Positions 14,871-63,637 of a stretch of DNA of 64,000 nt are shown one piece after another. Position 1 is the first letter of the stretch, and every line of letters starts with the position of its first letter. The position numbers and the translations under genes are program-made. The notes under the pieces were generated by a model. The model saw nothing but the letters and a program-made list of their open reading frames with translations, was not told the DNA's origin and made no database searches. Origin of the DNA: a virus; UHGV virus genome UHGV-1351772; one strand, given 5' to 3'.

Positions 14871-14886
14871 AGATAATATCTATCTG
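14871..14886. promoter_or_regulatory. palindromic promoter-like motif AGATAATATCTATCTG with AT-rich box
   Basis: Consensus copy in intergenic region between minus-strand genes. Confidence 0.45.
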
Positions 14887-35725: not shown

Positions 35726-36109
35726 TTAACCGTTATCATGAGGAACGGTTACCCAACTGTGCCATTTCTCGGAGTATAACCGATAGGCCACTTTCGGGTT
35801 TTGGTCTACATTACCTGCGGGGTTTTCAGACCACAGAACCCAACTGTACAATTCATAAGACGAAGTATTACGAATACTGGAGTTACGTGTGATATAATAG
35901 CATTTACCACGTTGGAAAATCTGCATTCCTGCATAGTGTTCATTCACCATGTAATAGTGAAATGCGACACTCATTACAGGATCGGTACAGAGTCTATTTA
36001 CGACGTCTAAAACGTCGGGATACGCCTTTAAAACTTTTTCGAGAAAACTTGCTAAGTTCAGACCGGCATACGGCGCGGTTGGCTCTGTTGGCTGCGGCGG
36101 TAGTAACAT
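35726..36109 (-). CDS. hypothetical protein (start probably internal Met near 35974)
   Basis: 127-aa ORF; longest form overlaps helicase 3-prime end. Confidence 0.4.
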   Translation of the reverse strand: MLLPPQPTEPTAPYAGLNLASFLEKVLKAYPDVLDVVNRLCTDPVMSVAFHYYMVNEHYAGMQIFQRGKCYYITRNSSIRNTSSYELYSWVLWSENPAGNVDQNPKVAYRLYSEKWHSWVTVPHDNG

Positions 36110-37745: not shown

Positions 37746-39845
37746 TTACTCAATGATAGTCGCGGCCACCGTATTGTCGTATAACGACGCCGGACGTTTA
37801 CGTGACGTGTAGAAACGCACGTTGTCCAGGTTTTTCTGTTGGCCTTCGAATAACAACATCGGTACAGCTGAACGCATCGCAATCAACGTGTTGTGATCCT
37901 CGAAACGTTTGCCATCCATCACATCAGCATCTTCACTATCAAACCCAACCGCCGGGAAAGGATTGGTCGGTGATTCAACGCGTGATATCGCCAGCATAAT
38001 CGCGATGTGTGTCATCGGAATACCACCGAGCTTACGTTGGATATATTTAAACACATCAAATAACGCGTGCGTACATTGTTTCTCCGTAGCACCGCGCATC
38101 TGAACCAGTGTCGTTGGTTTTACCTTACCTGACTTCTTGCTCAAACGCATTGAGTCATCAGAGAACTGTTCGAAAGTATCCGATTTATCAGACGCAACCG
38201 AACGAAGTTTCAATTCTAACCCTGCTACAAACTCCGCCATAGATTCAGACCGATTCGTATAAATTAGTATCGGCCAACTCGGTTTCCATCCTTTCAGGGG
38301 AATCCGTACCAGCTTCTTCGACGGGAAGGTAATGTTATCGCGCTGTTTCAGGAAGAAATGTAAGAAGGCTTTCGAGAAGTTACCACAAACCCCCATACGG
38401 ACGTCAATGGGATCTTCGGCCAACACATTCCCAGCTTCATCCAACCGCAAAAAGGTCAGTTCGTTAATCTCCGGCAATGCCGTTTCGTCGATCACTTCCA
38501 AATCATCGTGATACGCGATTTGGCTGATTTCAGAATAGACTTCATCGGAAATAACGAGTTGGTATTCATCCCAATTACCGTACTGCGGTTTCTCCCGTAA
38601 ACTCAATCCTTTTACGGAGTTGTGTTTATACTCACCAAGATAATCCCGCATTCTTGGAGTCAGCACCAGATTCAGCAGATAGCGTAAGAAGTCCAGGTGT
38701 TTCGTTGAGAGAATCCCCTGTGTACCCTTTTCAGATATCGAGGTTGAGGCCAAGTGGCCTGGTGACGTTCCCGGCGAAAGGTTATAAATCAAATCACCCA
38801 TGCAGGTTGCACAAATGCTTTGACGCGCCATCCCCTTACAACACATCGCGGTACGAAACTCAATAGGTTTGCCTAAGACTTTCTCAAACTCCCCTTTCTC
38901 GAATCGTAACCACGGGCCACCCACACCTTCAAAACGATAACGCATTCCCACCATCGCATCGTACTTCTTACGCTCCAGTTTACTTTCTGTAAACGTGTGG
39001 CGATGAACGTGATGTGTACCACAATCGTCGTATTCGAAATACATTAACACGTTGGCTGCTAACTGTAGCTTACGTGACGCATATTCCGCATCGGCGATTT
39101 TATCGGTATTATACAGGTGAGTACGTGACGTCGCTCCCGCTTCTTTCAGACGGCTAATTACAGAATGTAGACCCGTAAAGAAACCTTCCCATACCTGGTT
39201 GGAATAAACGCGAGAATCAATCTCTGATGTTTTCCCACGTATATACGCCTGAAGAACCTGGTTCATTTTGATGGTCTTATCCAAGACCGACATCACCACA
39301 GGGTTTAAACGAAGTTGTGGGTCTTTGAAGATATCTTCGATAAGAAGATACGCTTCTTCGATCATATCCCGACCTTCTTCGTCGTACCCAGTAGGATACA
39401 TTTGTGCCCACTGATGAATCTGCGTAAAATTTCGGTGTTGGTAAATTTCCATCATCGTATCGTAGTCAATCGTGACGCAATACGACAACAGATTTTTCAC
39501 CGATAAGTTAAACGCATCCGCATAGACGTGCTGCTGCAATAAATAGCGGGTATCTGCTAAATCCACACCCGCTTTACGTGCTGCCACAGCTGCCAATGAC
39601 ATAAACTTCAGATGTGCGTCATCTGTAGCGGTGTCGCCATGTTTATACGCCATTTGCGAACTGATTGGGATCTGCGGATAAAATCGTGTTAGCCCCCAAT
39701 AAGGCCAACTGATTTTAATGTGGCGTCCTGACATGTTTAAGGTTATCCCGTCATCGAACGTCACTTCATATCTGCCGCGCAATAGCCACACCTGATCCGA
39801 GTTCAGTTTACACAGATCACGCACGTGAACTGGAGTGCCCTTCAT
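37746..39845 (-). CDS. multisubunit RNA polymerase beta-prime-like subunit, C-terminal portion
   Basis: CATCMGDL...ISEKGTQGILSTKHLD resembles bacterial beta-prime CAKCYGRDL...IGEPGTQLTMRTFHIG region; immediately downstream of and coupled to the beta-like gene. Confidence 0.6.
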   Translation of the reverse strand: MKGTPVHVRDLCKLNSDQVWLLRGRYEVTFDDGITLNMSGRHIKISWPYWGLTRFYPQIPISSQMAYKHGDTATDDAHLKFMSLAAVAARKAGVDLADTRYLLQQHVYADAFNLSVKNLLSYCVTIDYDTMMEIYQHRNFTQIHQWAQMYPTGYDEEGRDMIEEAYLLIEDIFKDPQLRLNPVVMSVLDKTIKMNQVLQAYIRGKTSEIDSRVYSNQVWEGFFTGLHSVISRLKEAGATSRTHLYNTDKIADAEYASRKLQLAANVLMYFEYDDCGTHHVHRHTFTESKLERKKYDAMVGMRYRFEGVGGPWLRFEKGEFEKVLGKPIEFRTAMCCKGMARQSICATCMGDLIYNLSPGTSPGHLASTSISEKGTQGILSTKHLDFLRYLLNLVLTPRMRDYLGEYKHNSVKGLSLREKPQYGNWDEYQLVISDEVYSEISQIAYHDDLEVIDETALPEINELTFLRLDEAGNVLAEDPIDVRMGVCGNFSKAFLHFFLKQRDNITFPSKKLVRIPLKGWKPSWPILIYTNRSESMAEFVAGLELKLRSVASDKSDTFEQFSDDSMRLSKKSGKVKPTTLVQMRGATEKQCTHALFDVFKYIQRKLGGIPMTHIAIMLAISRVESPTNPFPAVGFDSEDADVMDGKRFEDHNTLIAMRSAVPMLLFEGQQKNLDNVRFYTSRKRPASLYDNTVAATIIE

Positions 39846-42082
39846 TATTCATCGCCCCTTTTCATTTTCACCAATTCAAACCCTTCACAGCTGTGAATGT
39901 TTTTCATCATCCTGTCAATCTGTGAATCCCCTAACGGGAATTTATTTCGGTCTACCAGTGGACCCGGATTAGACGGGGTTTGAGATCGATAAAGCCCTAC
40001 TAAAATCTCACGATGCACCGCAGGGTTATTTGCCCTGTCGTGAACTTCTTCGTAGTTACCTGGACCATAACCCGCTAACAGTCGTTCTTCCGAAGGACCA
40101 GCCCATTTTAGCGTTTTATAGTTTATCGGATACGAACCGCGGCCTTGGTTAGACGCGTCTATCGTACCCAGATAATTCAGATACATTGACGAGATACTGG
40201 AAAACTCACGACCTGTTTTATCCAGACGTAATGTTTCCACACCACCTACGTAAAACTCATTTTTTGTCCATTCCTGTTTACCATCGAAATTAGTAATCAG
40301 GAGTTTGGATTTACGCGGTTTAAATTCACCCAACCGTTCACTGATATCGACTGGCGTGTCGTCAAGTTCATGTGGTAAGTAAATACGGATTGTAAAATCG
40401 TAAATCTCTTTGAAAAGTTCGCGTTGTAAATCCTCCGTAGGATGCGTTGCCTGTAGTGTATTGGCCCATTCTGGATTATAGCGTGATAGATAATCCATCA
40501 GGATTTCCCAGCTCTCGCTGATACGTCCTTCATCCAGCAATGGTTTGAGACGCATTTTCAACTGTTCAGACGCAGCTGACCAATACATGTGGAATAATGC
40601 TGCATAAGTCGAGCGACGAATTACAGCGTTCATCGAACGTAAAACGTGAACACGTTCACCGAATTCGTTAATCGGCATCTGTTCAACGGGTAATACACGT
40701 CCAACAATCCCTTTCGTACCCGAGCGGTCGGTAATCTTAGACGACACCGTTACCGGGATCGGATAACGAACAGCAATACGAATGGTATACGTGTTGATGG
40801 GATCGCTGAGTCCACGTTGTACTGGCGAGGTCAACTTAGAAAGAATCTGCTGACTGACATTTTCTTTACCGTATTCACCACGACGAATTGCTTCATCAAT
40901 CACCACGCGTATCTCTTCACGAAACTCGTGATAGACCTCGTACGTTTCAGAAGCGAACGCTTTTTCCAACAACACACACGCTTTCGGCGACCAGATAATA
41001 TTTTTGTCACGGGACATCGAGAAATAGAATCGTACGATGGCATTGTAATAGTCTTTCAATGCTAATGCGTATTTATCCAGTTCTCGTTTGTTCTCTTCGG
41101 TACAAGAAATATTGTTAGCACCATTCGCGCAAGACGTTTCATCACGCCACACCTGGATATCGACGATACGTGTACCGCTACGCTCCATCAGTTCTTTGTC
41201 GCCTGCAAGACGTGCTTTATAATGGACGGGATCGGCATCCACATATTCGCAACTATCAAAGAACGGAGAGACGTGTTGAGTTTCCCCAAGCGACGCATCA
41301 ATTGCACCGTAAAGCTCATCGAAACGACGCGATGCAATGACCAACCCATCGTCACGAATAGCCTCTCCTACATCCGGGAAATACCGTGGGACGCGATTAC
41401 CGTTCGGATCGATGTAACCGTAAGTATCCAGTAAAAACTCGTCTTCACGTAGCGTCTTTTCAACGATTTTCAAACCATAACCGTGGAGTTTTTGGGCGGC
41501 GTACTCAGAGATGGTGTAAGAATCCTCGATGATATCAGAATGCGAAATCGTAACGGTTGGTAGCACGACGCTATCGGCGTACTCGCCTTCCACCATACAC
41601 GACATCGTTGTAAGGATTTCATCCTTTTCCAACTGATCGGTTTCGCCACGTAAAATACTACGCAGTTTCATCGACTCACGTTTCTCAGATGAGAAGATGT
41701 TGTCGTGGTTAGTATAGAAGTTAATCTCTAGCACATCTATCATGGTTTTACCGCCCTTCATTTCTGCACGGCGGAAGAAGATAGCATGTTCTAACGCTTT
41801 AGAATCCCCACGACGACCATAACGTGTAAACGTCGCGCGGCGCTGACGACCGTCTTTGGTCATATAGTGGCAGATGCTACCGGGATCTTCTACAACGTCG
41901 TTGAACAGAAAATCGTGGTAGTTTATATCTGCCCCTGTAAAATGCGGCGATGGTTCAGGATTGTCGATAGGGACCGCAGACTTCATATGGTTGCCTACCA
42001 TCGATGCCCTTGCACCTGATACTTCGGTGATATTAATCTCACGGTCAGCCACACTGCTCATTAGCTCTACTGGCGTTTTCAT
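39845..42082 (-). CDS. multisubunit RNA polymerase beta-like subunit, C-terminal portion
   Basis: DRSGTKGIVG...MP matches beta GDK..GRHGNKGV...MP motif; PDVGEAIRDDGLVIA matches PNVGEAALSKLDESGIV. Confidence 0.8.
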   Translation of the reverse strand: MKTPVELMSSVADREINITEVSGARASMVGNHMKSAVPIDNPEPSPHFTGADINYHDFLFNDVVEDPGSICHYMTKDGRQRRATFTRYGRRGDSKALEHAIFFRRAEMKGGKTMIDVLEINFYTNHDNIFSSEKRESMKLRSILRGETDQLEKDEILTTMSCMVEGEYADSVVLPTVTISHSDIIEDSYTISEYAAQKLHGYGLKIVEKTLREDEFLLDTYGYIDPNGNRVPRYFPDVGEAIRDDGLVIASRRFDELYGAIDASLGETQHVSPFFDSCEYVDADPVHYKARLAGDKELMERSGTRIVDIQVWRDETSCANGANNISCTEENKRELDKYALALKDYYNAIVRFYFSMSRDKNIIWSPKACVLLEKAFASETYEVYHEFREEIRVVIDEAIRRGEYGKENVSQQILSKLTSPVQRGLSDPINTYTIRIAVRYPIPVTVSSKITDRSGTKGIVGRVLPVEQMPINEFGERVHVLRSMNAVIRRSTYAALFHMYWSAASEQLKMRLKPLLDEGRISESWEILMDYLSRYNPEWANTLQATHPTEDLQRELFKEIYDFTIRIYLPHELDDTPVDISERLGEFKPRKSKLLITNFDGKQEWTKNEFYVGGVETLRLDKTGREFSSISSMYLNYLGTIDASNQGRGSYPINYKTLKWAGPSEERLLAGYGPGNYEEVHDRANNPAVHREILVGLYRSQTPSNPGPLVDRNKFPLGDSQIDRMMKNIHSCEGFELVKMKRGDE

Positions 42083-42110: not shown

Positions 42111-42126
42111 GGATAATATCTATCTC
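42111..42126. promoter_or_regulatory. palindromic promoter-like motif GGATAATATCTATCTC with AT-rich box
   Basis: In divergent intergenic region, upstream of ATG 42146. Confidence 0.5.
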
Positions 42127-42145: not shown

Positions 42146-42469
42146 ATGTTAGACAATTTTATTACCCTAGAAGAATTCATACCTGCGCCTTACACCACGA
42201 CGTGGAAAGTGATGCACGATTACACAGACTATCTGCGTAAACACCCGAAAACTAAAATAGAAAATGTTGACCCACGCTACAGTTGGCCTGAGGTCCACAA
42301 TTTCTACGCCTACTGTAAACTCAAAGGTTACGCCGATATCATTATCTATCCGATGATGCTATTAAACGGGCTAGAAGACCCCATGAATTTCACCCCTGAA
42401 ATCACGCAACTAATCGTACCCGACGTCGGAACGGTTAGTGAGATTATTAGCACCATCGGTAATGATTAA
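42146..42469 (+). CDS. hypothetical protein
   Basis: 107-aa ORF preceded by motif, followed by terminator. Confidence 0.5.
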   Translation: MLDNFITLEEFIPAPYTTTWKVMHDYTDYLRKHPKTKIENVDPRYSWPEVHNFYAYCKLKGYADIIIYPMMLLNGLEDPMNFTPEITQLIVPDVGTVSEIISTIGND

Positions 42470-42506: not shown

Positions 42507-43886
42507 TTAGCGCGTAAATGGCGAAGTTGCAAATCCACCGAAGCTGCTTTGCGGCTGTCCGCCAAAACTGCTATTCGTTGCAAATGCTGAACTCGTGCTA
42601 AACGCGCTAGTCCCTCCTACGTTCCCGCTAAAAGAATTATTCCCTCCGCCAAAGGTACTTGCCAAAGAACCTCCGGTATTCCCTACACCGAAGTTACTCT
42701 GACCACCGAAAGGTGACACCTTGCGCTCTCCACCAAACGCATCCACAACAGAAATTCGACTTACCATACCGTTGGCAGGGTTAGTTGTTCCGTGCTGCTC
42801 GGCGTAACGTTGCATCGCTGGCGTCAAATTCCCATAAGGACTATGCGTGGCCATGTTACGTTCACGTGCGCGGAAGAATTCCATCGGATCGGACTTATCT
42901 GCTTTATCTGCATCCGATGCACGTTTTTGTGGAATCTGCTGTGGTGCCTGTGCACGATCAATACGGAAATCATGCGCCGTGGTATCACGTTCAGGGCTGT
43001 CAGAACGTGGGCCGGTGTTATACGGTAAGGTCTGAATGACGTTATCGTAAATATCCATATTGTCCAGCTGAGAAATCCATTCATCTTCCAACGGACGTAA
43101 AGAAGTGTGGTCGCGCAATCCCTTAACGACGTTGTTATAGTTCACAACGTACTGCGCCCAACCACGCGCTAAGCAACCGAAATACGGACGCGAATCATTA
43201 GACCCCGTTACGCTCGGATACCAACCGAACACGGTGGTCAATAAACGATGGATAATGATTTTGTCTTGTTTACGTTGAAGCTTCGCAGAGAAGTACATTG
43301 CAGTACCATCTAACGATTCTTCTTCGAACATATTCCGATAATTAGCTACACGGTTAAACTTCACGCCGTCGATAACTAAATCAGACGCAATAAAAAGCTG
43401 GGTGATCTTGTGCTTTTTATCTTTTTCCAATTGTGCATAAACGAACGCCTTAACCGCTTCCCAGGATTTTACCAAACGTTCATCGAACGTCGGATCTTTC
43501 ATCCCTTCGCAAATCTGTTCTGTTAAGAATTTCTTGTAGGATGCAGAACGTACTGCTTTACCACTTGCCCCCGTTTCCAGAATCGCGTCGATTAATGCAA
43601 AGGAACGAATGAACAGGTTCGCATTAATGGATTTCTTCAGGAAACGAATTGTACCTGATTCACCTGCCAGTACCGATTCACACAGCGGATGAAATGCCTG
43701 ACATTCACGACCATCGTCGTCTTCCATGCCACGCTTAATCATCGCTGGGGTGGGAAGCGCCAAACGGCGCTTCACTTTGTTATACGTAAACTCTGCCGGT
43801 TCACCACCGTCACGAGTGAGTAAATCGTTTTCAAAATCGAATCCTTGTGATTTAAGAAACGATTTGTAGAATTCAATAATTTTCAT
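42507..43886 (-). CDS. hypothetical protein with C-terminal FG(G)-repeat low-complexity tail
   Basis: 459 aa; C-terminal ~70 aa contain AFGG, PFGG, NFG, TFGG, SFGG, SFGGF repeats in a Gly/Ser/Asn-rich context. Confidence 0.55.
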   Translation of the reverse strand: MKIIEFYKSFLKSQGFDFENDLLTRDGGEPAEFTYNKVKRRLALPTPAMIKRGMEDDDGRECQAFHPLCESVLAGESGTIRFLKKSINANLFIRSFALIDAILETGASGKAVRSASYKKFLTEQICEGMKDPTFDERLVKSWEAVKAFVYAQLEKDKKHKITQLFIASDLVIDGVKFNRVANYRNMFEEESLDGTAMYFSAKLQRKQDKIIIHRLLTTVFGWYPSVTGSNDSRPYFGCLARGWAQYVVNYNNVVKGLRDHTSLRPLEDEWISQLDNMDIYDNVIQTLPYNTGPRSDSPERDTTAHDFRIDRAQAPQQIPQKRASDADKADKSDPMEFFRARERNMATHSPYGNLTPAMQRYAEQHGTTNPANGMVSRISVVDAFGGERKVSPFGGQSNFGVGNTGGSLASTFGGGNNSFSGNVGGTSAFSTSSAFATNSSFGGQPQSSFGGFATSPFTR

Positions 43887-43908: not shown

Positions 43909-45615
43909 TTACTCGCCGAATGCACCAAAACCAGACACTGGCGCAGGAGTTGACATATCGCTGCCGCCAAAGCTACCGAAGCTACCCAGGCTCGTAGGTG
44001 CAGACACAGGGGCAGTTGGAATATTCGACAGGATATTCGAACGGTTCTGACCACGGTTGAATTCTTGGTACCCTTCTTCCACTTTATTCATCAGCTGCGC
44101 TGTTTCTGCAGCTAACTGGTTCGTGTACTGAAGGTCAGTTGTTGTACCACAATGCAGACGTGCTTTCATGAACGACGCATGAGTATAATACTCAGGCAGC
44201 TCACCATCGATTTCAATTTCAATACGTGAAACCACCCCGACGATACATGTTACGGTCATCTTACAACGAATACGGTTGTGTTTAGTCACTTGCAAGAATA
44301 CGCCTTGTAAGTCACTTAAGAAGCGACGCGCTAACACATCCGGTAATCCGTCTTCAGTTAATGCCCCAACGTTGTGTTTTGACACTTGCAGCAGAGGAGG
44401 TGTTGCAATATCCGCCATACGGTTATCGTAGAAGAAAGTCACTTCACCGATAAGGTTACGAGTGACCACAGGCCCCAGTAACATGGCTAAATCAAATGCC
44501 ACCAACGAACCCTGAGTAGAATAGTTATTACGTCCTACCCAATCATCGGTGCGTTCAATTTCACCAAAACCACGACGAGCCGCGACAGCCAGCGAGTGCG
44601 CAATTGCAGCGTCCACGTCTTCGGGATTAATCACCGCATTACGCAAGTCGCACAGTTTGAATGCTGCACGGTTCGCAACGTTCCAACCGCTAGTCATATC
44701 GGACGTGGCGTTGGATATGGCTGTTCTAAAAGCCTTCACCAACTCGTAACTGTTGAAATTACGCATCACACCGATCTGGCTAAGTTCAGATTCTACCCCA
44801 AGAGAATGATCTCCTGCGAAGAAACTGTCTACTGCGCTCAACTCCGTTTCAATCCCCATGGTATTAATGAAGGAATTGGAGATCGCTGTCACGAAAGATT
44901 CTGGTCGGGTTAATTGACTAGACATCAACTGTGGCGCACGCTGGCAATTAGCGGAGATAACGGTGTTGTTATCCAGCTCAATCTGCTCACCAGCTTTCAC
45001 CACTTTACGTACCATATCAGCTGCTTTCGCGGTAGAAATAACGTCAATGGTGTGCTCTACATAGCTGTCTGCGGTTAATGTCTTGGACAACACATAGTTG
45101 TCTATCAAACGGAAGGAATCCGGGTTGATACGACGTCCACCGAACGCATCAGTGATATACGTACATTGTAACCCGTATATTTCGTTGATATACAGAACCA
45201 TGTCGTCCGGCAGGTGATTAAACATGGATCGCTCTGCCTGGGACGTATACCCGGAAACAACATAACGCGTTTCCTGAGTCCGTGTGTCGTTTAACGAGTT
45301 CGAAACAATAATCGCCACGAAGTTATACACACCAGTATCGCGAGAATTATACGCAAATTGGATTGGTTGCGATTCGTTATCACTCACGTTAATGAATGGA
45401 CGTTCAATGCCTGTTGGGGTATTGTCGAAACCCACAATCTGCCCCAGGGCTTCTTGATAAGCCCGAGAACCTGTTGCTTTATCACCGTGTTCTGCAACCA
45501 CATCCACTAACTCATCCAAAGCGTGCTGCGATTCAAAGAACCCAATACGACGACGAATCTGCTCTGGGATTTCGTACACTGGATACATTTGTAGTTTCAA
45601 AAGTTTCATTGCCAT
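43909..45615 (-). CDS. hypothetical protein with C-terminal FG-repeat tail
   Basis: 568 aa; C-terminus ...SLGSFGSFGGSDMSTPAPVSGFGAFGE. Confidence 0.55.
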   Translation of the reverse strand: MAMKLLKLQMYPVYEIPEQIRRRIGFFESQHALDELVDVVAEHGDKATGSRAYQEALGQIVGFDNTPTGIERPFINVSDNESQPIQFAYNSRDTGVYNFVAIIVSNSLNDTRTQETRYVVSGYTSQAERSMFNHLPDDMVLYINEIYGLQCTYITDAFGGRRINPDSFRLIDNYVLSKTLTADSYVEHTIDVISTAKAADMVRKVVKAGEQIELDNNTVISANCQRAPQLMSSQLTRPESFVTAISNSFINTMGIETELSAVDSFFAGDHSLGVESELSQIGVMRNFNSYELVKAFRTAISNATSDMTSGWNVANRAAFKLCDLRNAVINPEDVDAAIAHSLAVAARRGFGEIERTDDWVGRNNYSTQGSLVAFDLAMLLGPVVTRNLIGEVTFFYDNRMADIATPPLLQVSKHNVGALTEDGLPDVLARRFLSDLQGVFLQVTKHNRIRCKMTVTCIVGVVSRIEIEIDGELPEYYTHASFMKARLHCGTTTDLQYTNQLAAETAQLMNKVEEGYQEFNRGQNRSNILSNIPTAPVSAPTSLGSFGSFGGSDMSTPAPVSGFGAFGE

Positions 45616-45645: not shown

Positions 45646-47358
45646 TTATTGATTAAACCATGCTACTTCTTCGCATTTCTTTCTGTTTTGAATTAACAGA
45701 AATTCTGCTAACATGTTCTGAAGTCGCGGATGAGGTGAATAGTCCAACATCACTGTCCCACACCGTAACATTCTGGCTGCTTCCGGTGTTGCCCTGAGAT
45801 TGAAGTTGAACGGTGCAATATGTTCACGAACCAACAAGCTGAGAGAATCCTTCAATGTTGATTGTTCGTAAGTATTACGATGCTTACGGTATGCTTGTGG
45901 ATAATATCTATCCGTTTTTATTTTAATCTCATTATCGATTGGCTCGATAGGATACCCGCCATTTAGCGGTGCCCGGATCATTTCACAACTTAACAACTGT
46001 GCAATCTCAGGCATTCCGTAATAGATGTAAACGGCTTGGGATATACCCATCGCGTTCTTAAACGCTTCTGCGTCGATTTCCTTGTATGTACGACGATCTG
46101 CAAATCGGTGCATCACTGCCGCCACCAACCATTCGTAGAGTTCGTAGAAAGGATATTGATGGTTAATGTTGATGGAATCTATCAACACTTTCACATCAGC
46201 GGGAGCAATATCGAGATTCAAAGCACGCACCGCACGACGATAGTCATTAAAGAATTCTTGAGTACGAACGAATTCCTTCATTGGTGCTTTAGTCCGAGCT
46301 TGAACCAGGTCAATCGACGAAGTTTTCCCCTTCTCGCCGTTGAACATGATTTTCTCAGGATTCGCTTTTAGCATCACGTTTTGACCGGAAATTTTTCCCG
46401 CGAAGCCCGTTTCAATTTCTTGCCGAATATTGAAATACATCCCCGCCACGATGTTGTTTTCAACCATCGTACCTGGTGGTAGTTCGGCACCGATTAACTT
46501 CATCGCAATTAAACGGATAACGGCGAACGCTATGATGTATTCCTCTACCATATCCGTACCGTAGCCGCAGATAGATGCCAGGACGGTAAGGTTTGCAGTA
46601 TTAGGTCCTTTACTCCCCCCGTCCTGAACTTTCGAAATCACCGACACTAAAAACTCACGCAACTTTGTAATGGCTGGCAGTGTAGCAATCTCGGTATCAG
46701 ACAACAGTTCCATGCAGTAGGTCAGGTTATAAACACTTTTGCGCTTCGACTCAACAGAAGCACGTGTTGCAGGAAAAGCGTCCAAAATCAAGAATACGGG
46801 AATAAACGGTTTTGTCATCAAAGACAAAATCACCAATTCGTAATAATCTTGTACGATATACGTCATCTCTTTTGGATAATTCGACGACATCTCTTCGTAC
46901 GTTTCGTGGACGTTTTGAGGAATCCACACCGAACCGTGTGGATAAAGCTGGCGGAATCTATCTGCGTGATGAAATTTAGCAATTCTCGCGACGAGCGTGG
47001 GGACGTGTTCACGAATAACTTCTGGGGGTTCATTAGCTAACAACTCTAATTCTTCGTAAACTGAAAACAGTTCGCTTTTCTCTTCAGGTGTTAAAGTTGA
47101 CCAATAACGCTCGATTTCCATGAACATGATTTTATCGTGCGTTACGATCTGTCCGAAACTATCGCGTACGTCTGGCACATTCACGTCTTTACGTCCATTT
47201 CGGAAACCATTAAACGCGACCTCTTTTTCGCCGTACTTTATCACTAAACGGTCACGATTCTTTTCAATGCGCATTTTAAAATCTCCAGGAATAACATAGT
47301 CGTCCACTAAGATAAAATCTATCTCAGATAACTTCGACTGTATTCTACACACATACAC
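45646..47358 (-). CDS. hypothetical protein
   Basis: 570-aa ORF. Confidence 0.55.
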   Translation of the reverse strand: MYVCRIQSKLSEIDFILVDDYVIPGDFKMRIEKNRDRLVIKYGEKEVAFNGFRNGRKDVNVPDVRDSFGQIVTHDKIMFMEIERYWSTLTPEEKSELFSVYEELELLANEPPEVIREHVPTLVARIAKFHHADRFRQLYPHGSVWIPQNVHETYEEMSSNYPKEMTYIVQDYYELVILSLMTKPFIPVFLILDAFPATRASVESKRKSVYNLTYCMELLSDTEIATLPAITKLREFLVSVISKVQDGGSKGPNTANLTVLASICGYGTDMVEEYIIAFAVIRLIAMKLIGAELPPGTMVENNIVAGMYFNIRQEIETGFAGKISGQNVMLKANPEKIMFNGEKGKTSSIDLVQARTKAPMKEFVRTQEFFNDYRRAVRALNLDIAPADVKVLIDSININHQYPFYELYEWLVAAVMHRFADRRTYKEIDAEAFKNAMGISQAVYIYYGMPEIAQLLSCEMIRAPLNGGYPIEPIDNEIKIKTDRYYPQAYRKHRNTYEQSTLKDSLSLLVREHIAPFNFNLRATPEAARMLRCGTVMLDYSPHPRLQNMLAEFLLIQNRKKCEEVAWFNQ

Positions 47359-47407
47359 GATAAAGAGCCCCAGGATATCCTGGGGCTATGTTATAGTTTT
47401 ACATTAT

Positions 47408-48052
47408 TTAGATAATATCGTCAAAATCGTTAGTTGGTGTTGGGGCTTTTGCAGCAGATTGGTTGTTATAACCTCCGCCGTTGCCGCCGTTATTGTAACC
47501 GCCGCGACCGTAACTACCACCACCCGCATTATTAAACTCACGCGGTTTGTAGTTGTCACGGAAATCTTCCAGGAATACATCCGCATTTTTCAGGAACGCG
47601 CGTAGCTGACGCTCTGCCAGTTCCAGATCGGAGACCAGTTGTCCATTACGGAAAACACGATAACCTTTCGGATAAGTGAAATAGAATTTCTTCTGACGCG
47701 CACCAACCCCTGGGATCTCGCCGCTCAGTGCAAAGAACGGTGTCAGATTTTCATCACGACCTACGTGTAAGCTAACCGGTGCCTTCTTACCTTTTGTATC
47801 TTCCCATTTGAAAACAACTTTTTCGGGTTTCTGCATCACCGTACGCAGGGTTTCAAAGATATCAACACAGACAGTATAACCTGCGGTGAAATAAAGACCT
47901 TCGCCTTTACCAAAGGAATAGTGGAATTTCATCAGTTCCACATCACCATTGAACTCGTTCAATTCAATGCCCAGTTTACGAGTACGGCCCTGTTGATCCG
48001 GCTCAGTCTGCGGGTAAAGCCATTTCTCTTTAAGGAAGTTTTTATTGACCAT
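47408..48052 (-). CDS. hypothetical protein; possibly SSB-like (Gly-rich linker plus acidic C-terminal tip)
   Basis: 214 aa; C-terminus GGGSYGRGGYNNGGNGGGYNN...NDFDDII resembles the Gly-rich linker and DFDDDIPF-type tip of bacterial SSB; N-terminal fold not verifiable by eye. Confidence 0.35.
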   Translation of the reverse strand: MVNKNFLKEKWLYPQTEPDQQGRTRKLGIELNEFNGDVELMKFHYSFGKGEGLYFTAGYTVCVDIFETLRTVMQKPEKVVFKWEDTKGKKAPVSLHVGRDENLTPFFALSGEIPGVGARQKKFYFTYPKGYRVFRNGQLVSDLELAERQLRAFLKNADVFLEDFRDNYKPREFNNAGGGSYGRGGYNNGGNGGGYNNQSAAKAPTPTNDFDDII

Positions 48053-48110
48053 TTACTTATCCTATTTTTACATTTTCGGAGTGCTCAAACTAACAAAACG
48101 ATCTGTAAAA

Positions 48111-48947
48111 TTAGCGAGACAATCTACGAAGGAACTCAATGACAAAGGGCTCGTTAACCAACTTCAAGCAACTGTAAATACGATCCATGGTCGTATCTTG
48201 TCGCCAGTGGTATTTCTCGGCGGTATTCAACACCACCTTACGAACCTTTCTGTCAAGTGGGGAGAACATATACCCATCGCCAAATAGCGTTAGAAACGCC
48301 TTGTTAAACGGGATCTGTTCGGGTTTACCGTAAAGCTTCGTGTACCATTCTAACCGACCTTTAATCTTGCCCGTGTGTGATTCTAGCAGATTCAACAGCG
48401 GGAAATCTTTGTAGGCCAGCAGATCGGCGGGGTAATGGGTTAAAATCAATGTGTCATGCTGCCCTTTCGGAAACACATCGAAGCTTTTGAATTGCTCAGG
48501 GTATTTTTCACCGTATAACTTTAACGTATCGTGTTCTAACGCATTAAAGTGGTGCTGGTTAGGTGTCATCTTTTCCTGCCCTCCCGCAATCGTACGGAAC
48601 GCTGCTTCGGGGAAGATTCTGTTCGCACTTTTATACGTACAGATATAGGGGACACATAGCACCGAAGGCGCTACCGCTTTCGCGGTAGCGTTAATAGAAG
48701 CAATATCTTCTTCAATCGATGCCAGCAACACTTCAGGTGTTAATCGTTCACGATTCGTTTCAAACGCGTAAAACGCGTTACGGAACAACGTCCGTAGATT
48801 CAGGTAAATATCCTGATACTTGTGGATAGGGACAGGACCCTTCCAATCGGCATATTCTCCTTCATGGAGAAGCCCTTCAAAAGCCAACGATGTAGCAATT
48901 GACATTTGATAAAACCCAAACGTGCGATCAACACTGATTGGGGTCAT
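48111..48947 (-). CDS. hypothetical protein
   Basis: 278-aa ORF. Confidence 0.5.
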   Translation of the reverse strand: MTPISVDRTFGFYQMSIATSLAFEGLLHEGEYADWKGPVPIHKYQDIYLNLRTLFRNAFYAFETNRERLTPEVLLASIEEDIASINATAKAVAPSVLCVPYICTYKSANRIFPEAAFRTIAGGQEKMTPNQHHFNALEHDTLKLYGEKYPEQFKSFDVFPKGQHDTLILTHYPADLLAYKDFPLLNLLESHTGKIKGRLEWYTKLYGKPEQIPFNKAFLTLFGDGYMFSPLDRKVRKVVLNTAEKYHWRQDTTMDRIYSCLKLVNEPFVIEFLRRLSR

Positions 48948-50092
48948 TTGATGCTCCTGATAATGTCAGTGACAATTTGTGCATCGTATTTAAACGGCAC
49001 TAATGCTTCTAACAAAATCGCTTCCACATTCTCTTCAGAGATGGTTTCCTCGACCTCTGCGTCGATGGCAAAACCGGCTGCGAGAATTTGCTCCTCTTCA
49101 GGCGTACGTATACGCGTACCTGAAATATGGAATGAATATTGTGATTTCCAACGAGTGATGGCTTCCGCCAATGGAGAATCAGGGTAATATTCAATTTCCA
49201 ATCGTCCTATCATTGAGGACGGATGAGTATCGATGTACTCAAGCGCAGAGAGACATTTCGCGTACTGCGATTCATAGTCCTCCTCCGCAGCAATTTTAAT
49301 CTGCGGGCAAGCGCGTTCATTAACCAAGAAATAATCTCTGGCTAAATCAGGAGTGAAATCGACAATAGCAAAGCCTTTGTCCTCTTCTTCACCCATTGCC
49401 AGGCGATCAGGGCTGCCTGGTACACGAATCTTACCCAATTGTTTCCTACGATGATCGTGATGGATGATAATCAAATGCTTGACTAACGGTTCCCAAAAAT
49501 CCGTATGGAAAAAGCGGGTAGACTCAACGGGAACTTGGAACTGAAAGCAGCCATGCATAAAGCAGAAATCCATCTGCTGTATACCACGCGTGGCTAATAA
49601 TTCAGCCATTTCCTGTTCTGTTGCGGTAGCATCAATGGATTCAGAACCCAGGGCTTTATACTCGTCCTGGACCCAACCGACTGTCGCTTCTAACGCCTCG
49701 TCGTAAAACACGCCAATCTTATCCAGATACAAACAATCTGCACCCACCGCCTGATTTAACTCTTCGACGATTTTCGATTGTTTGTGATCGTGGGAGGGTG
49801 TTCCTTCCAAGACACGAATAGCAGTATTCGTCTGTTTGGCCCAGAGCAATAACCAAGTTAAAAACCCTATGGCTTCCTGAGAATCTTCTTGCCGCAAATG
49901 CCGGGAATCATCAAATAAATCACCAGCTATATAAATAGCGTCAATCGTATTATCGAACCGTTCTAAGGTTTCCTTGAGCACGTTAACAATGTGCCACGTC
50001 GGTACACGACGGTGCAGTAAATGTACATCGCCCGTTGAGAAAATGCGCTTAACGCCAACTGGTTTCGGTGGCGGATTAGTAATCCTCTTCAT
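48944..50092 (-). CDS. calcineurin-like metallophosphoesterase, Mre11/SbcD-like nuclease (putative)
   Basis: Phosphoesterase motifs in order: GDVHL, GDLFDD, SHDH, HGCF, HHDH. Confidence 0.55.
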   Translation of the reverse strand: MKRITNPPPKPVGVKRIFSTGDVHLLHRRVPTWHIVNVLKETLERFDNTIDAIYIAGDLFDDSRHLRQEDSQEAIGFLTWLLLWAKQTNTAIRVLEGTPSHDHKQSKIVEELNQAVGADCLYLDKIGVFYDEALEATVGWVQDEYKALGSESIDATATEQEMAELLATRGIQQMDFCFMHGCFQFQVPVESTRFFHTDFWEPLVKHLIIIHHDHRRKQLGKIRVPGSPDRLAMGEEEDKGFAIVDFTPDLARDYFLVNERACPQIKIAAEEDYESQYAKCLSALEYIDTHPSSMIGRLEIEYYPDSPLAEAITRWKSQYSFHISGTRIRTPEEEQILAAGFAIDAEVEETISEENVEAILLEALVPFKYDAQIVTDIIRSIK

Positions 50093-53843: not shown

Positions 53844-55691
53844 TTAGAAAGTCGGACGCCAGTCAGTTGCAGCGAAGGACATACCGAAATCGCTACCAAA
53901 TGCGTTAGGACCGCTACCAGACAGCGCGAAGTTCTCATTACCCGTGTTAACAAACACAGAGTGAGTGAGGCTGTTCGCTGCGGTAACACCATTCACCTGG
54001 AAGTTGCAGTTTTCAGTAATGTATTCCACCAGTGCTTTACCAAACAGCGGATTGATCGCCAGGTCAGACGCTTCACCCGTTACCTGCGGCTGTTTGCTAC
54101 CGAACATGGACGCAGCCATTTTCAGCAGGTACAGACGCTGGTCACGCGCATTCAGATAGCGGTGAGAGTAGGACTGTGCACTGATGTAGTCGATCGCATC
54201 GCGTTGGTTATCACCCACTTTAGTCAGAGCGGAAACCAAGTCCATATCCTGGAAGCTGCGTTTCTGGCTGTTGCTGAAATACTGACCAGAGATGGTCGGG
54301 CAACCGGCAATAACAACGTGTTTGCACTCGAAGTTGGTGACATTGCCCAGCAGTGCTTTGAAGCGAGTGCTGAACTTAGTCGCGCCGTTGCTGGCCATGT
54401 TATCCAGGATATTGAACAGGGTGTACAGTGCGTTGGTGTTACCCATCCCGATTTCGCTCAGGAGAGTAGACAGGCCACCGATACCGTTACCTGCACGATG
54501 GTTCACCACCAGGGCCGCAGTCGGGTTAGCGAAGGTGTCCAGGCATTTCTCGATAACTTCACGGTTACCGTCGATTTTGCTCAGGTCAGGTTTTTCGCTG
54601 CCCCATTCTACATACTCCAGAACGCGGGAGAAGCGGCGATCGGTTTTGTTCAGCGACTGCATGAAACGTTCACGCCAGCCACCAATAGTGGCGATTTGTG
54701 CGAACGCGGCCAGTTCAATCAGCTGACGCTCGATAGGTGCCATTGCCCCAGAGGACTGAGAATCCATCAGGGAAACAACCACTTCGGCTTCCAGCTGACG
54801 CAGGTCCTGAGTACCGTTAGTCAGGGTTTGAGGTTTACCTTTATGGCGGAGGTTGATGTAACCAACACCTGCAACGCTCGGATAATTCTGGAGGCGTTCA
54901 GAAGAGAACAGCGTCGGGTTATTATCGTTGTTGCCAGTGCGAGTGTGGTCAACCACAACCATCAGGTCAGCACGTTGTGCAGAACCGTTAACGTCAGTTA
55001 CAGAACCTTCTTCAACTACGCTGACTTGCGCGGTGAAGCGATCAGAACGGGTCATTTTCAGGTAGCCCAGGTAGCCGGAATGACGACCGAAGATACCCAA
55101 TGCAATCTGGCCCATGAGCTGGTTAGCCCATTCTTCGTTCATGGTTTTACCCAGTTCCGGTACGCAGTTCATTACCATGAACTGTACGCTTGGCAGATTG
55201 TGCTGAGTTGCAATCTGGTTAGTGATGTTGTTCATCACACCTTCTTGACTGAACAGCTGCGCCAGGGTGTAGTAGTTTTCTTTACCGTTGATTTCGTAGA
55301 AACGGATGGACTGGCCATGTTCAAAGAACAGGATACCATAGAGCCATTCGTTATGGTTATCGCCGGACGGACCAGCCACGTATGCAGCAGAACCCATTTC
55401 AGAGTTGATGCCGTCAATAACACCCCAACGGAAGTTACGCAGGTATGTGTTCTTCTCCGCCATCTTCTCAATCAGGCTAGTGAACTGAGAAGCAGTGGAC
55501 ACGAAAGACATGTATCCGAAAGCTTTATCGAAAGTAGAGATGTTTTTAGACATCCCACCAAAAGCGTTGGCCGCATTGGTATTATCCACAGTAGCAGCTC
55601 CCGCGCCACCGAAAGACGGAATTGGATCTGCAGCGGAACCAGCAGCACCAGTCACAACGTCGTTTTGATTGTCAATAAACTCTTTAGCCAT
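53844..55691 (-). CDS. abundant 615-aa protein; candidate phage nuclear-shell protein (chimallin), alternatively a virion structural protein
   Basis: Strong codon bias; AAGGA RBS; two tandem consensus promoter motifs upstream; own terminator; size and extended N/C tails are compatible with chimallin, but no direct sequence verification is possible here. Confidence 0.4.
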   Translation of the reverse strand: MAKEFIDNQNDVVTGAAGSAADPIPSFGGAGAATVDNTNAANAFGGMSKNISTFDKAFGYMSFVSTASQFTSLIEKMAEKNTYLRNFRWGVIDGINSEMGSAAYVAGPSGDNHNEWLYGILFFEHGQSIRFYEINGKENYYTLAQLFSQEGVMNNITNQIATQHNLPSVQFMVMNCVPELGKTMNEEWANQLMGQIALGIFGRHSGYLGYLKMTRSDRFTAQVSVVEEGSVTDVNGSAQRADLMVVVDHTRTGNNDNNPTLFSSERLQNYPSVAGVGYINLRHKGKPQTLTNGTQDLRQLEAEVVVSLMDSQSSGAMAPIERQLIELAAFAQIATIGGWRERFMQSLNKTDRRFSRVLEYVEWGSEKPDLSKIDGNREVIEKCLDTFANPTAALVVNHRAGNGIGGLSTLLSEIGMGNTNALYTLFNILDNMASNGATKFSTRFKALLGNVTNFECKHVVIAGCPTISGQYFSNSQKRSFQDMDLVSALTKVGDNQRDAIDYISAQSYSHRYLNARDQRLYLLKMAASMFGSKQPQVTGEASDLAINPLFGKALVEYITENCNFQVNGVTAANSLTHSVFVNTGNENFALSGSGPNAFGSDFGMSFAATDWRPTF

Positions 55692-55740: not shown

Positions 55741-55754
55741 AGATAATATCTAGC
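55741..55754. promoter_or_regulatory. palindromic promoter-like motif AGATAATATCTAGC with downstream GATATTTT
   Basis: First of two tandem copies in the divergent region between 55691 and 55900. Confidence 0.55.
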
Positions 55755-55820: not shown

Positions 55821-55834
55821 AGATAATATCTTTC
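55821..55834. promoter_or_regulatory. palindromic promoter-like motif AGATAATATCTTTC with downstream GATATTTT
   Basis: Second tandem copy, 80 nt from the first. Confidence 0.55.
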
Positions 55835-63622: not shown

Positions 63623-63637
63623 AGATAATATCTATAC
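63623..63637. promoter_or_regulatory. palindromic promoter-like motif AGATAATATCTATAC with downstream AAATATT
   Basis: Consensus copy in divergent region upstream of ATG 63756. Confidence 0.5.

What the first reader, a model, noticed from the sequence alone, without database searches (positions are those of the whole stretch)
47408..48052. Possible SSB-like protein: Gly/Asn/Tyr-rich linker ending in acidic DFDDII tip
The C-terminus (GGGSYGRGGYNNGGNGGGYNN...TPTNDFDDII) mimics the disordered Gly-rich linker and acidic protein-interaction tip (DFDDDIPF-type) of bacterial single-stranded DNA-binding proteins. The N-terminal ~150 aa could hold an OB fold but this cannot be judged by eye. A consensus-like motif variant overlaps the last codons.
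Basis: inference. Interest (0 to 1): 0.45.

Follow-up and report, generated by a model that had tools for sequence, protein, structure and literature searches.

The report
Jumbo-phage ChmC protein with SSB-like tail
This gene encodes the ChmC/Imp6 protein of a nucleus-forming jumbo phage, a known single-stranded RNA/DNA binder with a Whirly fold rather than an OB fold. Its disordered tail and acidic tip copy the layout of bacterial SSB so closely across the family that ChmC may be these phages' long-missing SSB.

Summary
The ORF is real (47408-48052, minus strand, 214 aa) and its tail is as described.

**What it is not.** It is not an OB-fold SSB.

**What it is.** It is the orthologue of ChmC/Imp6 (phiKZ gp67, PhiPA3 gp61, Goslar gp176), the Whirly-fold, tetrameric ssRNA/ssDNA-binding protein of nucleus-forming jumbo phages.
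- It falls in the same PHROG (3284) as those proteins.
- Profile-profile probability is 98.4%.
- Gene order is identical: SbcD-gp66-ChmC-gp68-Imp1-gp70-RNAP.

The core observation holds and generalises.
- In 95 family members a G/N/Q-rich linker is followed by an acidic, almost K/R-free tip.
- The tip has a hydrophobic residue in its last two positions in 94 of 95.
- Ten members end in a literal bacterial SSB tip (…DDDIPF).
- The query tail aligns in order with the E. coli SSB tail (z 5.5 against shuffles).

**Why it may matter.** No canonical SSB is detectable in SPN3US, and the literature reports none in phiKZ-like phages. The ChmC papers I could search never mention SSB.

**Verdict.** This is a new member of a known family. 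It leaves an open, testable possibility that ChmC doubles as the missing SSB, or uses an SSB-type tip as an interaction hub.

The parts
47408..48052 (-). CDS of the ChmC/Imp6 orthologue (214 aa plus stop)
   Evidence: ORF list. PHROG 3284 at E 5e-51, the same PHROG as phiKZ gp67, PhiPA3 gp61 and Goslar gp176. hhalign against ChmC references gives 98.4%, E 4e-15.
47537..48052 (-). Whirly/PUR-like nucleic-acid-binding domain (aa 1-172)
47459..47533 (-). Gly/Asn/Tyr-rich disordered linker (aa 174-198)
   Evidence: pLDDT below 50 from residue 174 onward. Family linker composition is G 34%, N 17.5%, Q 9%. No DNA tandem repeat underlies it.
47411..47458 (-). Pre-tip QSAAKAPTPT (aa 199-207) and acidic, hydrophobic tip NDFDDII (aa 208-214)
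   Evidence: Ordered alignment to the E. coli SSB tail, z 5.5. Tip conservation across 95 homologues.
48060..48063 (-). Shine-Dalgarno AGGA, 7 nt upstream of the ATG
   Evidence: Read directly from the sequence.
47366..47387 (-). Intrinsic-terminator-like hairpin AGCCCCAGG-ATAT-CCTGGGGCT followed by CTTTAT
   Evidence: Terminator scan. RNA fold -20.9 kcal/mol, z -4.49. An equivalent hairpin follows the SPN3US orthologue.
47410..47421 (-). ACGATATTATCT: a 2-mismatch variant of the recurrent motif, overlapping codons D-D-I-I-stop; probably coincidental
   Evidence: Not present at the same place in SPN3US.
47310..47321 (-). TAGATTTTATCT: promoter-like motif after the terminator, 36 nt upstream of the likely true start (ATG 47274) of the gp68-like gene
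   Evidence: An exact TAGATATTATCT sits at the equivalent place in SPN3US.
48111..48947 (-). Upstream neighbour, phiKZ gp66 homologue
   Evidence: BLASTP E 2e-28. PHROG 3229 for both proteins.
48944..50092 (-). SbcD-like nuclease (phiKZ gp65 homologue)
   Evidence: BLASTP E 2e-30. PHROG 100.
45646..47274 (-). Downstream neighbour, phiKZ gp68 homologue (non-virion RNA polymerase subunit, sigma-like)
   Evidence: BLASTP E 5e-10. PHROG 3209 for both proteins. Role taken.
43909..45615 (-). phiKZ gp69 (Imp1/PicA) homologue, the published direct binding partner of gp67/Imp6
   Evidence: PHROG 3141 for both proteins. The interaction is reported in bioRxiv 10.1101/2024.03.27.586873.
42507..43886 (-). 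phiKZ gp70 homologue
   Evidence: BLASTP E 6e-11. PHROG 3520 for both proteins.

Best explanation
The ORF encodes the ChmC/Imp6 orthologue of an undescribed SPN3US/phiEaH2-like nucleus-forming jumbo phage (Chimalliviridae).

Shown here:
- It is homologous to the characterised ChmC proteins.
- It has a Whirly/PUR-type fold, not an OB fold.
- It ends in a disordered G/N/Y-rich linker and a conserved acidic, hydrophobic tip.

Inferred from experiments on PhiPA3, phiKZ and Goslar ChmC:
- It forms homotetramers that bind single-stranded nucleic acid non-specifically through the basic face of the Whirly domain (RNA somewhat tighter than DNA).
- The disordered tail gives multivalency and condensate formation, and the tail is essential for productive infection.
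- The protein acts in and on the phage nucleus together with Imp1/PicA and the phage RNA polymerase.

Inferred from the tail anatomy:
- The tip works as in SSB, T7 gp2.5 and T4 gp32. It would be a short acidic peptide with a hydrophobic end that folds back on the protein's own basic nucleic-acid-binding surface, docks on partner proteins, or both.
- The overall design is therefore an SSB with its OB fold replaced by a Whirly domain.
For: - **Family:** PHROG 3284 for the query (E 5e-51) and for phiKZ gp67, PhiPA3 gp61 and Goslar gp176. hhalign gives 96% against phiKZ gp67 alone and 98.4%, E 4e-15, against a ChmC reference alignment. The merged alignment shows a continuum between the clades and shared VGR / KF.F motifs.
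- **Synteny:** the order SbcD-gp66-[ORF]-gp68-gp69/Imp1-gp70-RNAP beta-helicase matches phiKZ, PhiPA3, Goslar and SPN3US.
- **Tail:** of 95 homologues, 87 have at least 2 acidic residues in the last 8, 1 has any K/R there, 94 have a hydrophobic residue in the last 2, 63 end in F, and 10 match D[DE][DE][ILMVF]PF$. Literal-tip members lie in the chimallin-RNAP-...-ChmC block. The query tail aligns in order to the E. coli SSB tail.
- **Experiments on homologues** (PMC11077065): homotetramer; Kd 58 nM for ssRNA and 184 nM for ssDNA; condensates require the tail; knockdown gives small nuclei with less DNA; the tail-less form fails to rescue titre. Imp1 binding is reported. No transposon insertions were recovered in the gene and ASO knockdown impairs the phage.
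Against: - Only 1 of the 6 basic residues mutated in PhiPA3 ChmC (K30, R35, R44, K48, K59, R63) aligns with a basic residue in the query in the MAFFT alignment. That part of the alignment is unreliable at about 15% identity.
- Pairwise BLAST between the query and phiKZ gp67 is not significant, so homology rests on profiles, fold and synteny.
- The oligomeric state, nucleic-acid binding and tip function of this particular protein were not and cannot be tested here.
- The query tip (DFDDII) lacks the Pro-Phe of the canonical SSB tip.
Confidence: 0.85

Rival explanations
1. ChmC is the missing replicative or recombination SSB of nucleus-forming phages. On this reading a Whirly-fold tetramer has non-orthologously replaced the OB-fold SSB. 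It coats ssDNA in the phage nucleus and uses its SSB-type tip to recruit phage partners (polymerase, helicase, UvsX, the RNase HI-like protein) or imported host partners. This is compatible with an additional RNA role.
For: - The layout is that of SSB, and ten homologues carry a literal SSB tip.
- The top structural match, StWhy2, belongs to the plant Whirly family, described as ssDNA-binding proteins of organelles.
- PhiPA3 ChmC binds ssDNA cooperatively (Kd 184 nM, Hill coefficient 2.4) and was found by proximity labelling with the nuclear recombinase UvsX.
- It is very abundant and expressed early.
- Goslar ChmC forms puncta inside the nucleus. Knockdown nuclei contain less DNA, and the tail is essential.
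- Kazlauskas et al. 2016 detected no SSB in phiKZ-like phages and proposed non-orthologous displacement (PMC4889955).
- phmmer with E. coli SSB, T4 gp32 and T7 gp2.5 finds nothing in the whole SPN3US genome, the window or the phiKZ block. ChmC is the only ORF there that combines a G/N/Q/S/P-rich linker with an acidic, hydrophobic tip.
- No SSB is annotated in SPN3US.
- No paper in the held library links ChmC with SSB.
Against: - ChmC binds ssRNA about 3-fold tighter than ssDNA, crosslinks to phage mRNAs in vivo, and its knockdown traps mRNA in the nucleus.
- PhiPA3 ChmC is seen at the shell and in the cytoplasm rather than throughout the nucleus.
- Reduced DNA could be secondary to the global loss of phage proteins.
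- Tips vary a lot between clades (DFDDII, YDEFL, FDEDMPSF, AFDGLAF). This argues against strict mimicry of the invariant host SSB tip.
- The phmmer check cannot exclude a very divergent OB-fold SSB.
Confidence: 0.3
2. The tail is only a solubilising, autoinhibitory 'electronegative cluster' plus a condensate-forming N/G-rich region, as proposed in the ChmC paper. On this reading there is no specific partner-docking function, and the likeness to SSB is convergent and incidental.
For: - This is the published interpretation, with the demonstration that tail deletion abolishes condensates and shell localisation while RNA binding and tetramers persist.
- Tip sequences are variable across clades.
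Against: A pure charge cluster does not explain three features: the near-universal hydrophobic or aromatic final residue (94/95, with F in 63/95), the recurrent [ILMVF]-P-x(0,1)-[FW] motif near the end (at least 40 of 95), or the literal DDDIPF in ten members. The ordered match of pre-tip and tip to E. coli SSB also exceeds what composition gives.
Confidence: 0.3
3. A canonical OB-fold single-stranded DNA-binding protein (bacterial SSB, gp32 or gp2.5 type).
For: Only the tail resembles one.
Against: - No Pfam hit at E up to 1.
- The only PDB sequence hit to an SSB is the low-complexity tail, at E 0.73.
- phmmer with three SSB seeds finds nothing.
Confidence: 0.02

Closest known systems
ChmC / Imp6 of Chimalliviridae (PhiPA3 gp61, phiKZ gp67, Goslar gp176; Enustun et al. 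2024, NAR, PMC11077065; Imp6 in bioRxiv 10.1101/2024.03.27.586873)
   Same: It shares the same PHROG, profile-level homology, the Whirly-like fold, the N/G-rich disordered region followed by an acidic end, the same slot in the conserved gene block, and similar domain charge.
   Different: - It is shorter (214 aa against 246-262 aa), lacking the N-terminal extension of about 12 residues and the insertion around residues 85-105 of the phiKZ clade.
- Identity is only about 12-20%.
- The tip is of the [FY]-D-[DES]-[FIM]-[ILVF] type, without Pro-Phe.
- The experimentally mutated basic residues are mostly not alignable.
Bacterial SSB (E. coli SSB, Pfam PF00436): OB-fold tetramer, G/Q/P-rich intrinsically disordered linker and the acidic tip MDFDDDIPF
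   Same: - It has the same three-part layout.
- The tail shows ordered similarity (QSA..AP..P..DFDD.I).
- Family members carry identical tips (EFDDDIPF, NDDDIPF).
- The characterised homologues are tetramers that bind ssDNA and form condensates.
   Different: The nucleic-acid-binding domain is a Whirly fold, not an OB fold. Homologues prefer ssRNA. The linker is Asn/Tyr-rich rather than Gln/Pro-rich.
Plant Whirly proteins (StWhy2, AtWHY2, PBF-2 p24) and trypanosome MRP1/MRP2
   Different: There is no detectable sequence similarity (5-9% identity in structural alignments) and no Pfam Whirly hit. To my knowledge these proteins lack a Gly-rich linker with an SSB-type tip.
Phage SSBs T7 gp2.5 and T4 gp32
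   Same: Both have acidic C-terminal tails ending in a hydrophobic residue (…EADEDGDF and …DLDDLLNDL). From established knowledge, these tails both autoinhibit DNA binding and dock phage replication proteins.
   Different: They are OB-fold proteins with no Gly-rich linker. No sequence similarity to the query was found.

Membership tests
ChmC/Imp6 (PHROG 3284) | Sequence homology to the experimentally characterised members | tested here: met
   The query (E 5e-51) and phiKZ gp67, PhiPA3 gp61 and Goslar gp176 fall in the same PHROG. hhalign gives 98.4%, E 4e-15.
ChmC/Imp6 (PHROG 3284) | Whirly/PUR-like fold (tandem beta-sheet plus helix repeats) | tested here: met
ChmC/Imp6 (PHROG 3284) | C-terminal disordered N/G-rich region followed by an acidic segment | tested here: met
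   pLDDT below 50 for residues 174-214. Composition and tip statistics.
ChmC/Imp6 (PHROG 3284) | Position in the conserved block beside the nvRNAP subunits and Imp1/PicA | tested here: met
ChmC/Imp6 (PHROG 3284) | Conservation of the basic residues needed for RNA binding in PhiPA3 ChmC | tested here: inconclusive
   Only K30 aligns to a basic residue (R25). The alignment is unreliable there. Domain net charge and pI are similar.
ChmC/Imp6 (PHROG 3284) | Homotetramer; ssRNA/ssDNA binding; condensates; Imp1 binding | not testable with these tools
   Known only for PhiPA3, phiKZ and Goslar proteins.
Bacterial-type SSB (PF00436) and phage gp32 / gp2.5 SSBs | OB-fold ssDNA-binding domain | tested here: not met
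Bacterial-type SSB (PF00436) and phage gp32 / gp2.5 SSBs | Disordered Gly-rich linker | tested here: met
Bacterial-type SSB (PF00436) and phage gp32 / gp2.5 SSBs | Acidic C-terminal tip ending in a hydrophobic residue (D-F-D-D-D-I-P-F in bacteria) | tested here: met
   The query ends in NDFDDII, which has the DFDD.I core but lacks Pro-Phe. Ten of 95 homologues have a strict D[DE][DE][ILMVF]PF$.
Bacterial-type SSB (PF00436) and phage gp32 / gp2.5 SSBs | Coats ssDNA at forks; tip binds replication and repair proteins | not testable with these tools
   Only in-vitro ssDNA binding by PhiPA3 ChmC is known.
Whirly (PF08536) / PUR (PF04845) superfamily | Match to the family sequence models | tested here: not met
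   No Pfam family at E up to 1. The relationship is structural only.

The most novel reading that the evidence does not exclude
ChmC is the long-sought SSB of nucleus-forming jumbo phages. On this reading a Whirly-fold tetramer replaced the OB-fold SSB but kept, or re-acquired, the SSB linker and acidic tip. The tip would act as a docking hub for phage replication and recombination proteins, or for host SSB-interacting proteins, inside the phage nucleus. The published RNA-export and import phenotypes would then be only part of its job, or partly downstream of a replication defect.
Probability: 0.3. Interest if true: 0.75.

Novelty: new member of a known kind. Interest (0 to 1): 0.42.

Why it matters
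As a gene, this is an ordinary though divergent orthologue of a protein characterised in 2024.

ChmC proteins carry the full SSB tail, and several carry it to the letter (…DDDIPF).
- phiKZ-like phages have no recognisable SSB, a gap noted in 2016.
- The ChmC and Imp6 literature I could search never draws the SSB parallel.

If the tip is a docking peptide, it offers a concrete handle, a 7-10 residue peptide, for finding ChmC's partners. It would also allow ChmC's RNA roles to be separated from possible DNA replication and recombination roles. Finally, it would be a clean example of domain replacement under a conserved SSB design.

Tried and rejected
- Pfam (E up to 1) and a PDB sequence search gave nothing except a low-complexity tail match to Coxiella SSB at E 0.73.
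- Megablast of the ORF, and of 20 kb around it, against phage records found no close relative. The best was 12% coverage at about 74% identity, so the phage itself is undescribed.
- Pairwise BLASTP against phiKZ gp67 was not significant. Profiles were needed.
- AATGTAAAA, present at both ends of the ORF, is not enriched: 2 copies against 1.4 expected. I dropped it.
- Rfam found no RNA family at E up to 1, and no DNA tandem repeat underlies the Gly/Asn-rich part.
- The afdb50 fold library was unavailable.
- Supplements of the ChmC paper, wanted for the affinities of the tail-less protein, are not held.
- Pfam on ten neighbouring genes gave one weak RNAP hit only. PHROGs were informative instead.
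- I considered strict mimicry of the host SSB tip and think it unlikely for this clade. Tips differ widely between phages of hosts whose SSB tips are, as far as I know, nearly identical.
- I considered the motif over the last codons as a functional promoter and rejected it as the likeliest reading. It is not conserved in SPN3US, whereas the copy after the terminator is.

Full report
**1. Observation.**
The window holds an ATG-initiated ORF at 47408-48052 on the minus strand. Several features mark it as a real gene.
- An AGGA Shine-Dalgarno sequence lies 7 nt upstream of the ATG.
- A 9-bp, GC-rich hairpin followed by CTTTAT lies 20 nt after the stop codon. Its RNA fold is -20.9 kcal/mol with z = -4.5 against shuffles.
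- Full-length homologues of 39-99% identity occur in jumbo phages and metagenomes.
- No Rfam family and no DNA tandem repeat lie under it.

**2. Source of the window.**
tblastn of the protein hits 62 phage records, all jumbo phages of about 200-250 kb. They include Erwinia phiEaH2, Stratton and Asesino, Salmonella SPN3US and its relatives, and Escherichia, Cronobacter and Proteus phages. The best identity is 71% over the folded part. Megablast of 20 kb covers at most 12% at about 74% identity. The window therefore comes from an undescribed member of the SPN3US/phiEaH2 group of phiKZ-like phages.

**3. Family.**
Pfam gives nothing. PHROGs places the protein in phrog_3284, annotated 'unknown function' (E 5e-51). 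The same PHROG holds phiKZ gp67, PhiPA3 gp61 and Goslar gp176 (E 6e-80, 6e-81 and 1e-35). Those three proteins are ChmC (Enustun et al. 2024, PMC11077065), also called Imp6.

Pairwise BLAST against phiKZ gp67 is not significant. The profile of the query clade matches phiKZ gp67 at 96% probability. It matches an 11-sequence ChmC reference alignment at 98.4% probability, E 4e-15. A merged alignment shows intermediates that bridge the two clades and shared VGR and KF.F motifs.

**4. Gene order.**
The window, read on its minus strand, runs as follows:
- SbcD-like nuclease (48944-50092)
- gp66-like (48111-48947)
- the ORF (47408-48052)
- gp68-like nvRNAP subunit (45646-47274)
- gp69/Imp1/PicA-like (43909-45615)
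- gp70-like (42507-43886)
- RNA polymerase beta genes (39845-42082 and 37746-39845)
- helicase (35994-37703)

This is the order of phiKZ gp65 to gp75 and of the same blocks in PhiPA3, Goslar and SPN3US. It is confirmed by BLASTP and by shared PHROGs for gp66, gp68, gp69 and gp70. The ORF is therefore the positional orthologue of ChmC.

**5. Fold.**
AlphaFold2 with a 13-sequence alignment gives a confident core (pLDDT above 90 over most of residues 11-160). The topology is beta-beta-beta-alpha / beta-beta-beta-beta-alpha, and the tail from residue 174 is disordered.

**6. The tail, across the family.**
I collected 95 non-redundant family members. Their tails show the following:
- The 45 residues before the tip are 34% Gly, 17.5% Asn and 9% Gln.
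- 87 of 95 have at least two acidic residues in the last eight.
- Only 1 of 95 has any Lys or Arg in the last eight.
- 94 of 95 have a hydrophobic or aromatic residue in the last two positions, and 63 end in Phe.
- At least 40 carry an [ILMVF]-P-x(0,1)-[FW] motif near the end.
- Ten match the strict bacterial SSB tip D[DE][DE][ILMVF]PF$. Examples are …EFDDDIPF, …GDDDIPF, …NDDDIPF, …SFDDDLPF and …NDFDDELPF.

Two of these literal-tip proteins were traced to contigs of 24 kb and 212 kb. There they sit in the chimallin - RNAP - … - SbcD-like - gp66-like - ChmC - gp68-like block. They are true orthologues, not SSB chimeras.

The query clade uses a shorter tip, [FY]-D-[DES]-[FIM]-[ILVF]. Its last 20 residues align in order with those of E. 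coli SSB (QSAAKAPT--PTNDFDDII against QSAPAAPSNEPPMDFDDDI). The z-score is 5.5 against composition-preserving shuffles. The Whirly domains of the query and of characterised ChmCs have the same charge pattern: domain pI about 9, last ten residues net -3.

**7. What is known experimentally about homologues.**
- PhiPA3 ChmC is a homotetramer. It binds ssRNA (Kd 58 nM) and ssDNA (Kd 184 nM, Hill coefficient 2.4).
- It was discovered by proximity labelling with ChmA and with the nuclear recombinase UvsX, and it is among the most abundant early proteins.
- It forms condensates that depend on the C-terminal 48 residues.
- Goslar ChmC forms puncta inside and on the phage nucleus. Knockdown gives small nuclei with less DNA, nuclear retention of mRNA and a global loss of phage proteins. 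The tail-less protein supports nucleus growth but does not rescue titre.
- phiKZ gp67 binds Imp1 (gp69) directly. The gene tolerates no transposon insertions, and ASO knockdown impairs phage propagation.
- The authors interpret the acidic end as an 'electronegative cluster'. The paper never uses the terms SSB or single-stranded DNA-binding protein.
- No relevant paper in the held library combines ChmC with SSB. Two recent reviews do not either.

**8. The 'missing SSB' angle.**
Kazlauskas et al. 2016 reported that they could not detect an SSB in phiKZ-like phages. They suggested either extreme divergence or non-orthologous displacement (PMC4889955).

I fetched the whole SPN3US genome and found no CDS annotated as an SSB. 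phmmer with E. coli SSB, T4 gp32 and T7 gp2.5 against all six-frame ORFs of at least 50 aa found nothing at E up to 10. That search covered SPN3US, the window and the phiKZ block. In the same set, the ChmC orthologue is the only ORF that combines a G/N/Q/S/P-rich segment (0.65-0.76 of residues) with an acidic, hydrophobic tip.

These checks are of limited sensitivity. They are consistent with ChmC being the only SSB-shaped protein these phages have.

**9. Mechanism.**
Best supported: a Whirly-fold tetramer binds single-stranded nucleic acid on its basic face, and a flexible G/N/Y-rich linker carries an acidic tip with a hydrophobic end.

By analogy with SSB, gp2.5 and gp32 (established knowledge; their tails are shown), the tip should compete with nucleic acid for the basic surface, dock on partner proteins, or both. 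The near-universal terminal hydrophobic residue and the I-P-F motifs argue for a specific pocket rather than mere charge.

The identity of the partner is unknown. The candidates are Imp1/PicA, nvRNAP, replication or recombination enzymes, or host SSB interactors. The wide variation of tips between clades (DFDDII, YDEFL, FDEDMPSF, AFDGLAF, DDDIPF) suggests co-evolution with phage-encoded partners rather than strict mimicry of the host SSB tip.

**10. Side observation on the motif.**
The 'consensus-like motif' is TAGATATTATCT.
- It is strand-specific: GATATTATC occurs 8 times on the minus strand and never on the plus strand.
- It is enriched: 19 matches at up to 2 mismatches, against 4.7 expected.
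- It lies mostly in intergenic regions.

A 1-mismatch copy at 47310-47321 follows the terminator, 36 nt before the probable true start (ATG 47274) of the gp68-like gene. SPN3US has an exact copy at the same place, after an equivalent hairpin. The 2-mismatch copy that overlaps the ORF's last codons is not conserved in SPN3US and is probably a by-product of the codons for D-D-I-I-stop.

**11. Verdict.**
The finding is a new, divergent member of a known family (ChmC/Imp6).
- Its tail observation is right and turns out to be general.
- The most novel reading not excluded is that ChmC doubles as the Whirly-fold SSB of nucleus-forming phages, or at least uses an SSB-type docking tip. I put this at about 0.3. 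It is directly testable with tip mutants and peptide pull-downs.

Noticed in passing
window 14871-14882, 42111-42122, 45899-45910, 47310-47321, 55741-55752, 55821-55832, 63623-63634 (all minus strand); also L001 6744, 8160, 11903: A strand-specific motif, TAGATATTATCT, recurs mostly in intergenic regions upstream of genes (19 matches at up to 2 mismatches against 4.7 expected). It is conserved at equivalent positions in SPN3US. It is probably a phage promoter element; from memory it resembles the AT-rich early-promoter consensus of phiKZ.
   Followed up: partly
window 45646-47358 (-): The mechanical ORF starts at GTG 47358, but that would run through the terminator hairpin and the promoter-like motif. 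The true start is probably ATG 47274 (MRIEKNRD…, 542 aa), which fits SPN3US gp236 (535 aa).
   Followed up: partly
window 42146-42469 (+): A small gene of 107 aa lies on the opposite strand, between the gp70-like gene and the RNA polymerase beta gene. An opposite-strand ORF of 107-117 aa sits at the same place in SPN3US (gp233), Goslar (gp172) and a 212-kb metagenomic contig (L020 12819-13163). Its function is unknown.
   Followed up: no
window 53844-55691 (-): A 615-aa protein sits in the position of the nuclear-shell protein chimallin, upstream of the gp55-like RNAP gene. It falls in PHROG 8316 (as SPN3US gp244), not in the phiKZ chimallin PHROG 4795. It has no Pfam chimallin hit and no BLAST hit to phiKZ gp54. 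It is presumably a very divergent ChmA.
   Followed up: partly
P0014 (Salmonella phage SPFM9, SPFM9_00272): This annotated 228-aa protein contains the same sequence blocks as ChmC but in scrambled, apparently reversed block order. It is probably an assembly or annotation artefact.
   Followed up: no
L008 (Erwinia phage pEa_SNUABM_54, record 235866-237278): The ChmC homologue is annotated there as a 1413-nt CDS, about twice the usual length. This could be a fusion with the next gene or a missed stop or frameshift.
   Followed up: no
P0090 (metagenomic ChmC homologue): The tip …GDGDDIPF is followed by 18 further residues (NDVAHNHVKKIAFDV). It is the one listed homologue in which the SSB-like tip is not terminal. 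This could be a read-through or a sequencing error.
   Followed up: no
BFVD hits of the model: Small proteins of about 125-135 aa from Bacillus phages W.Ph. (gp208, gp212, gp230), BPS10C and PPIsBest match the model at Foldseek probabilities of about 0.85-1.0. This may be an unexplored group of short Whirly-like phage proteins.
   Followed up: no
P0001, P0008: A protein 99% identical to the query stands for a cluster of 152 member sequences, represented by a 15.5-kb contig assembled from public reads. A 90% identical fragment is filed at NCBI as 'hypothetical protein, partial [Escherichia coli]'. The phage appears repeatedly in sequence data but is absent from the phage genome collection searched.
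   Followed up: no
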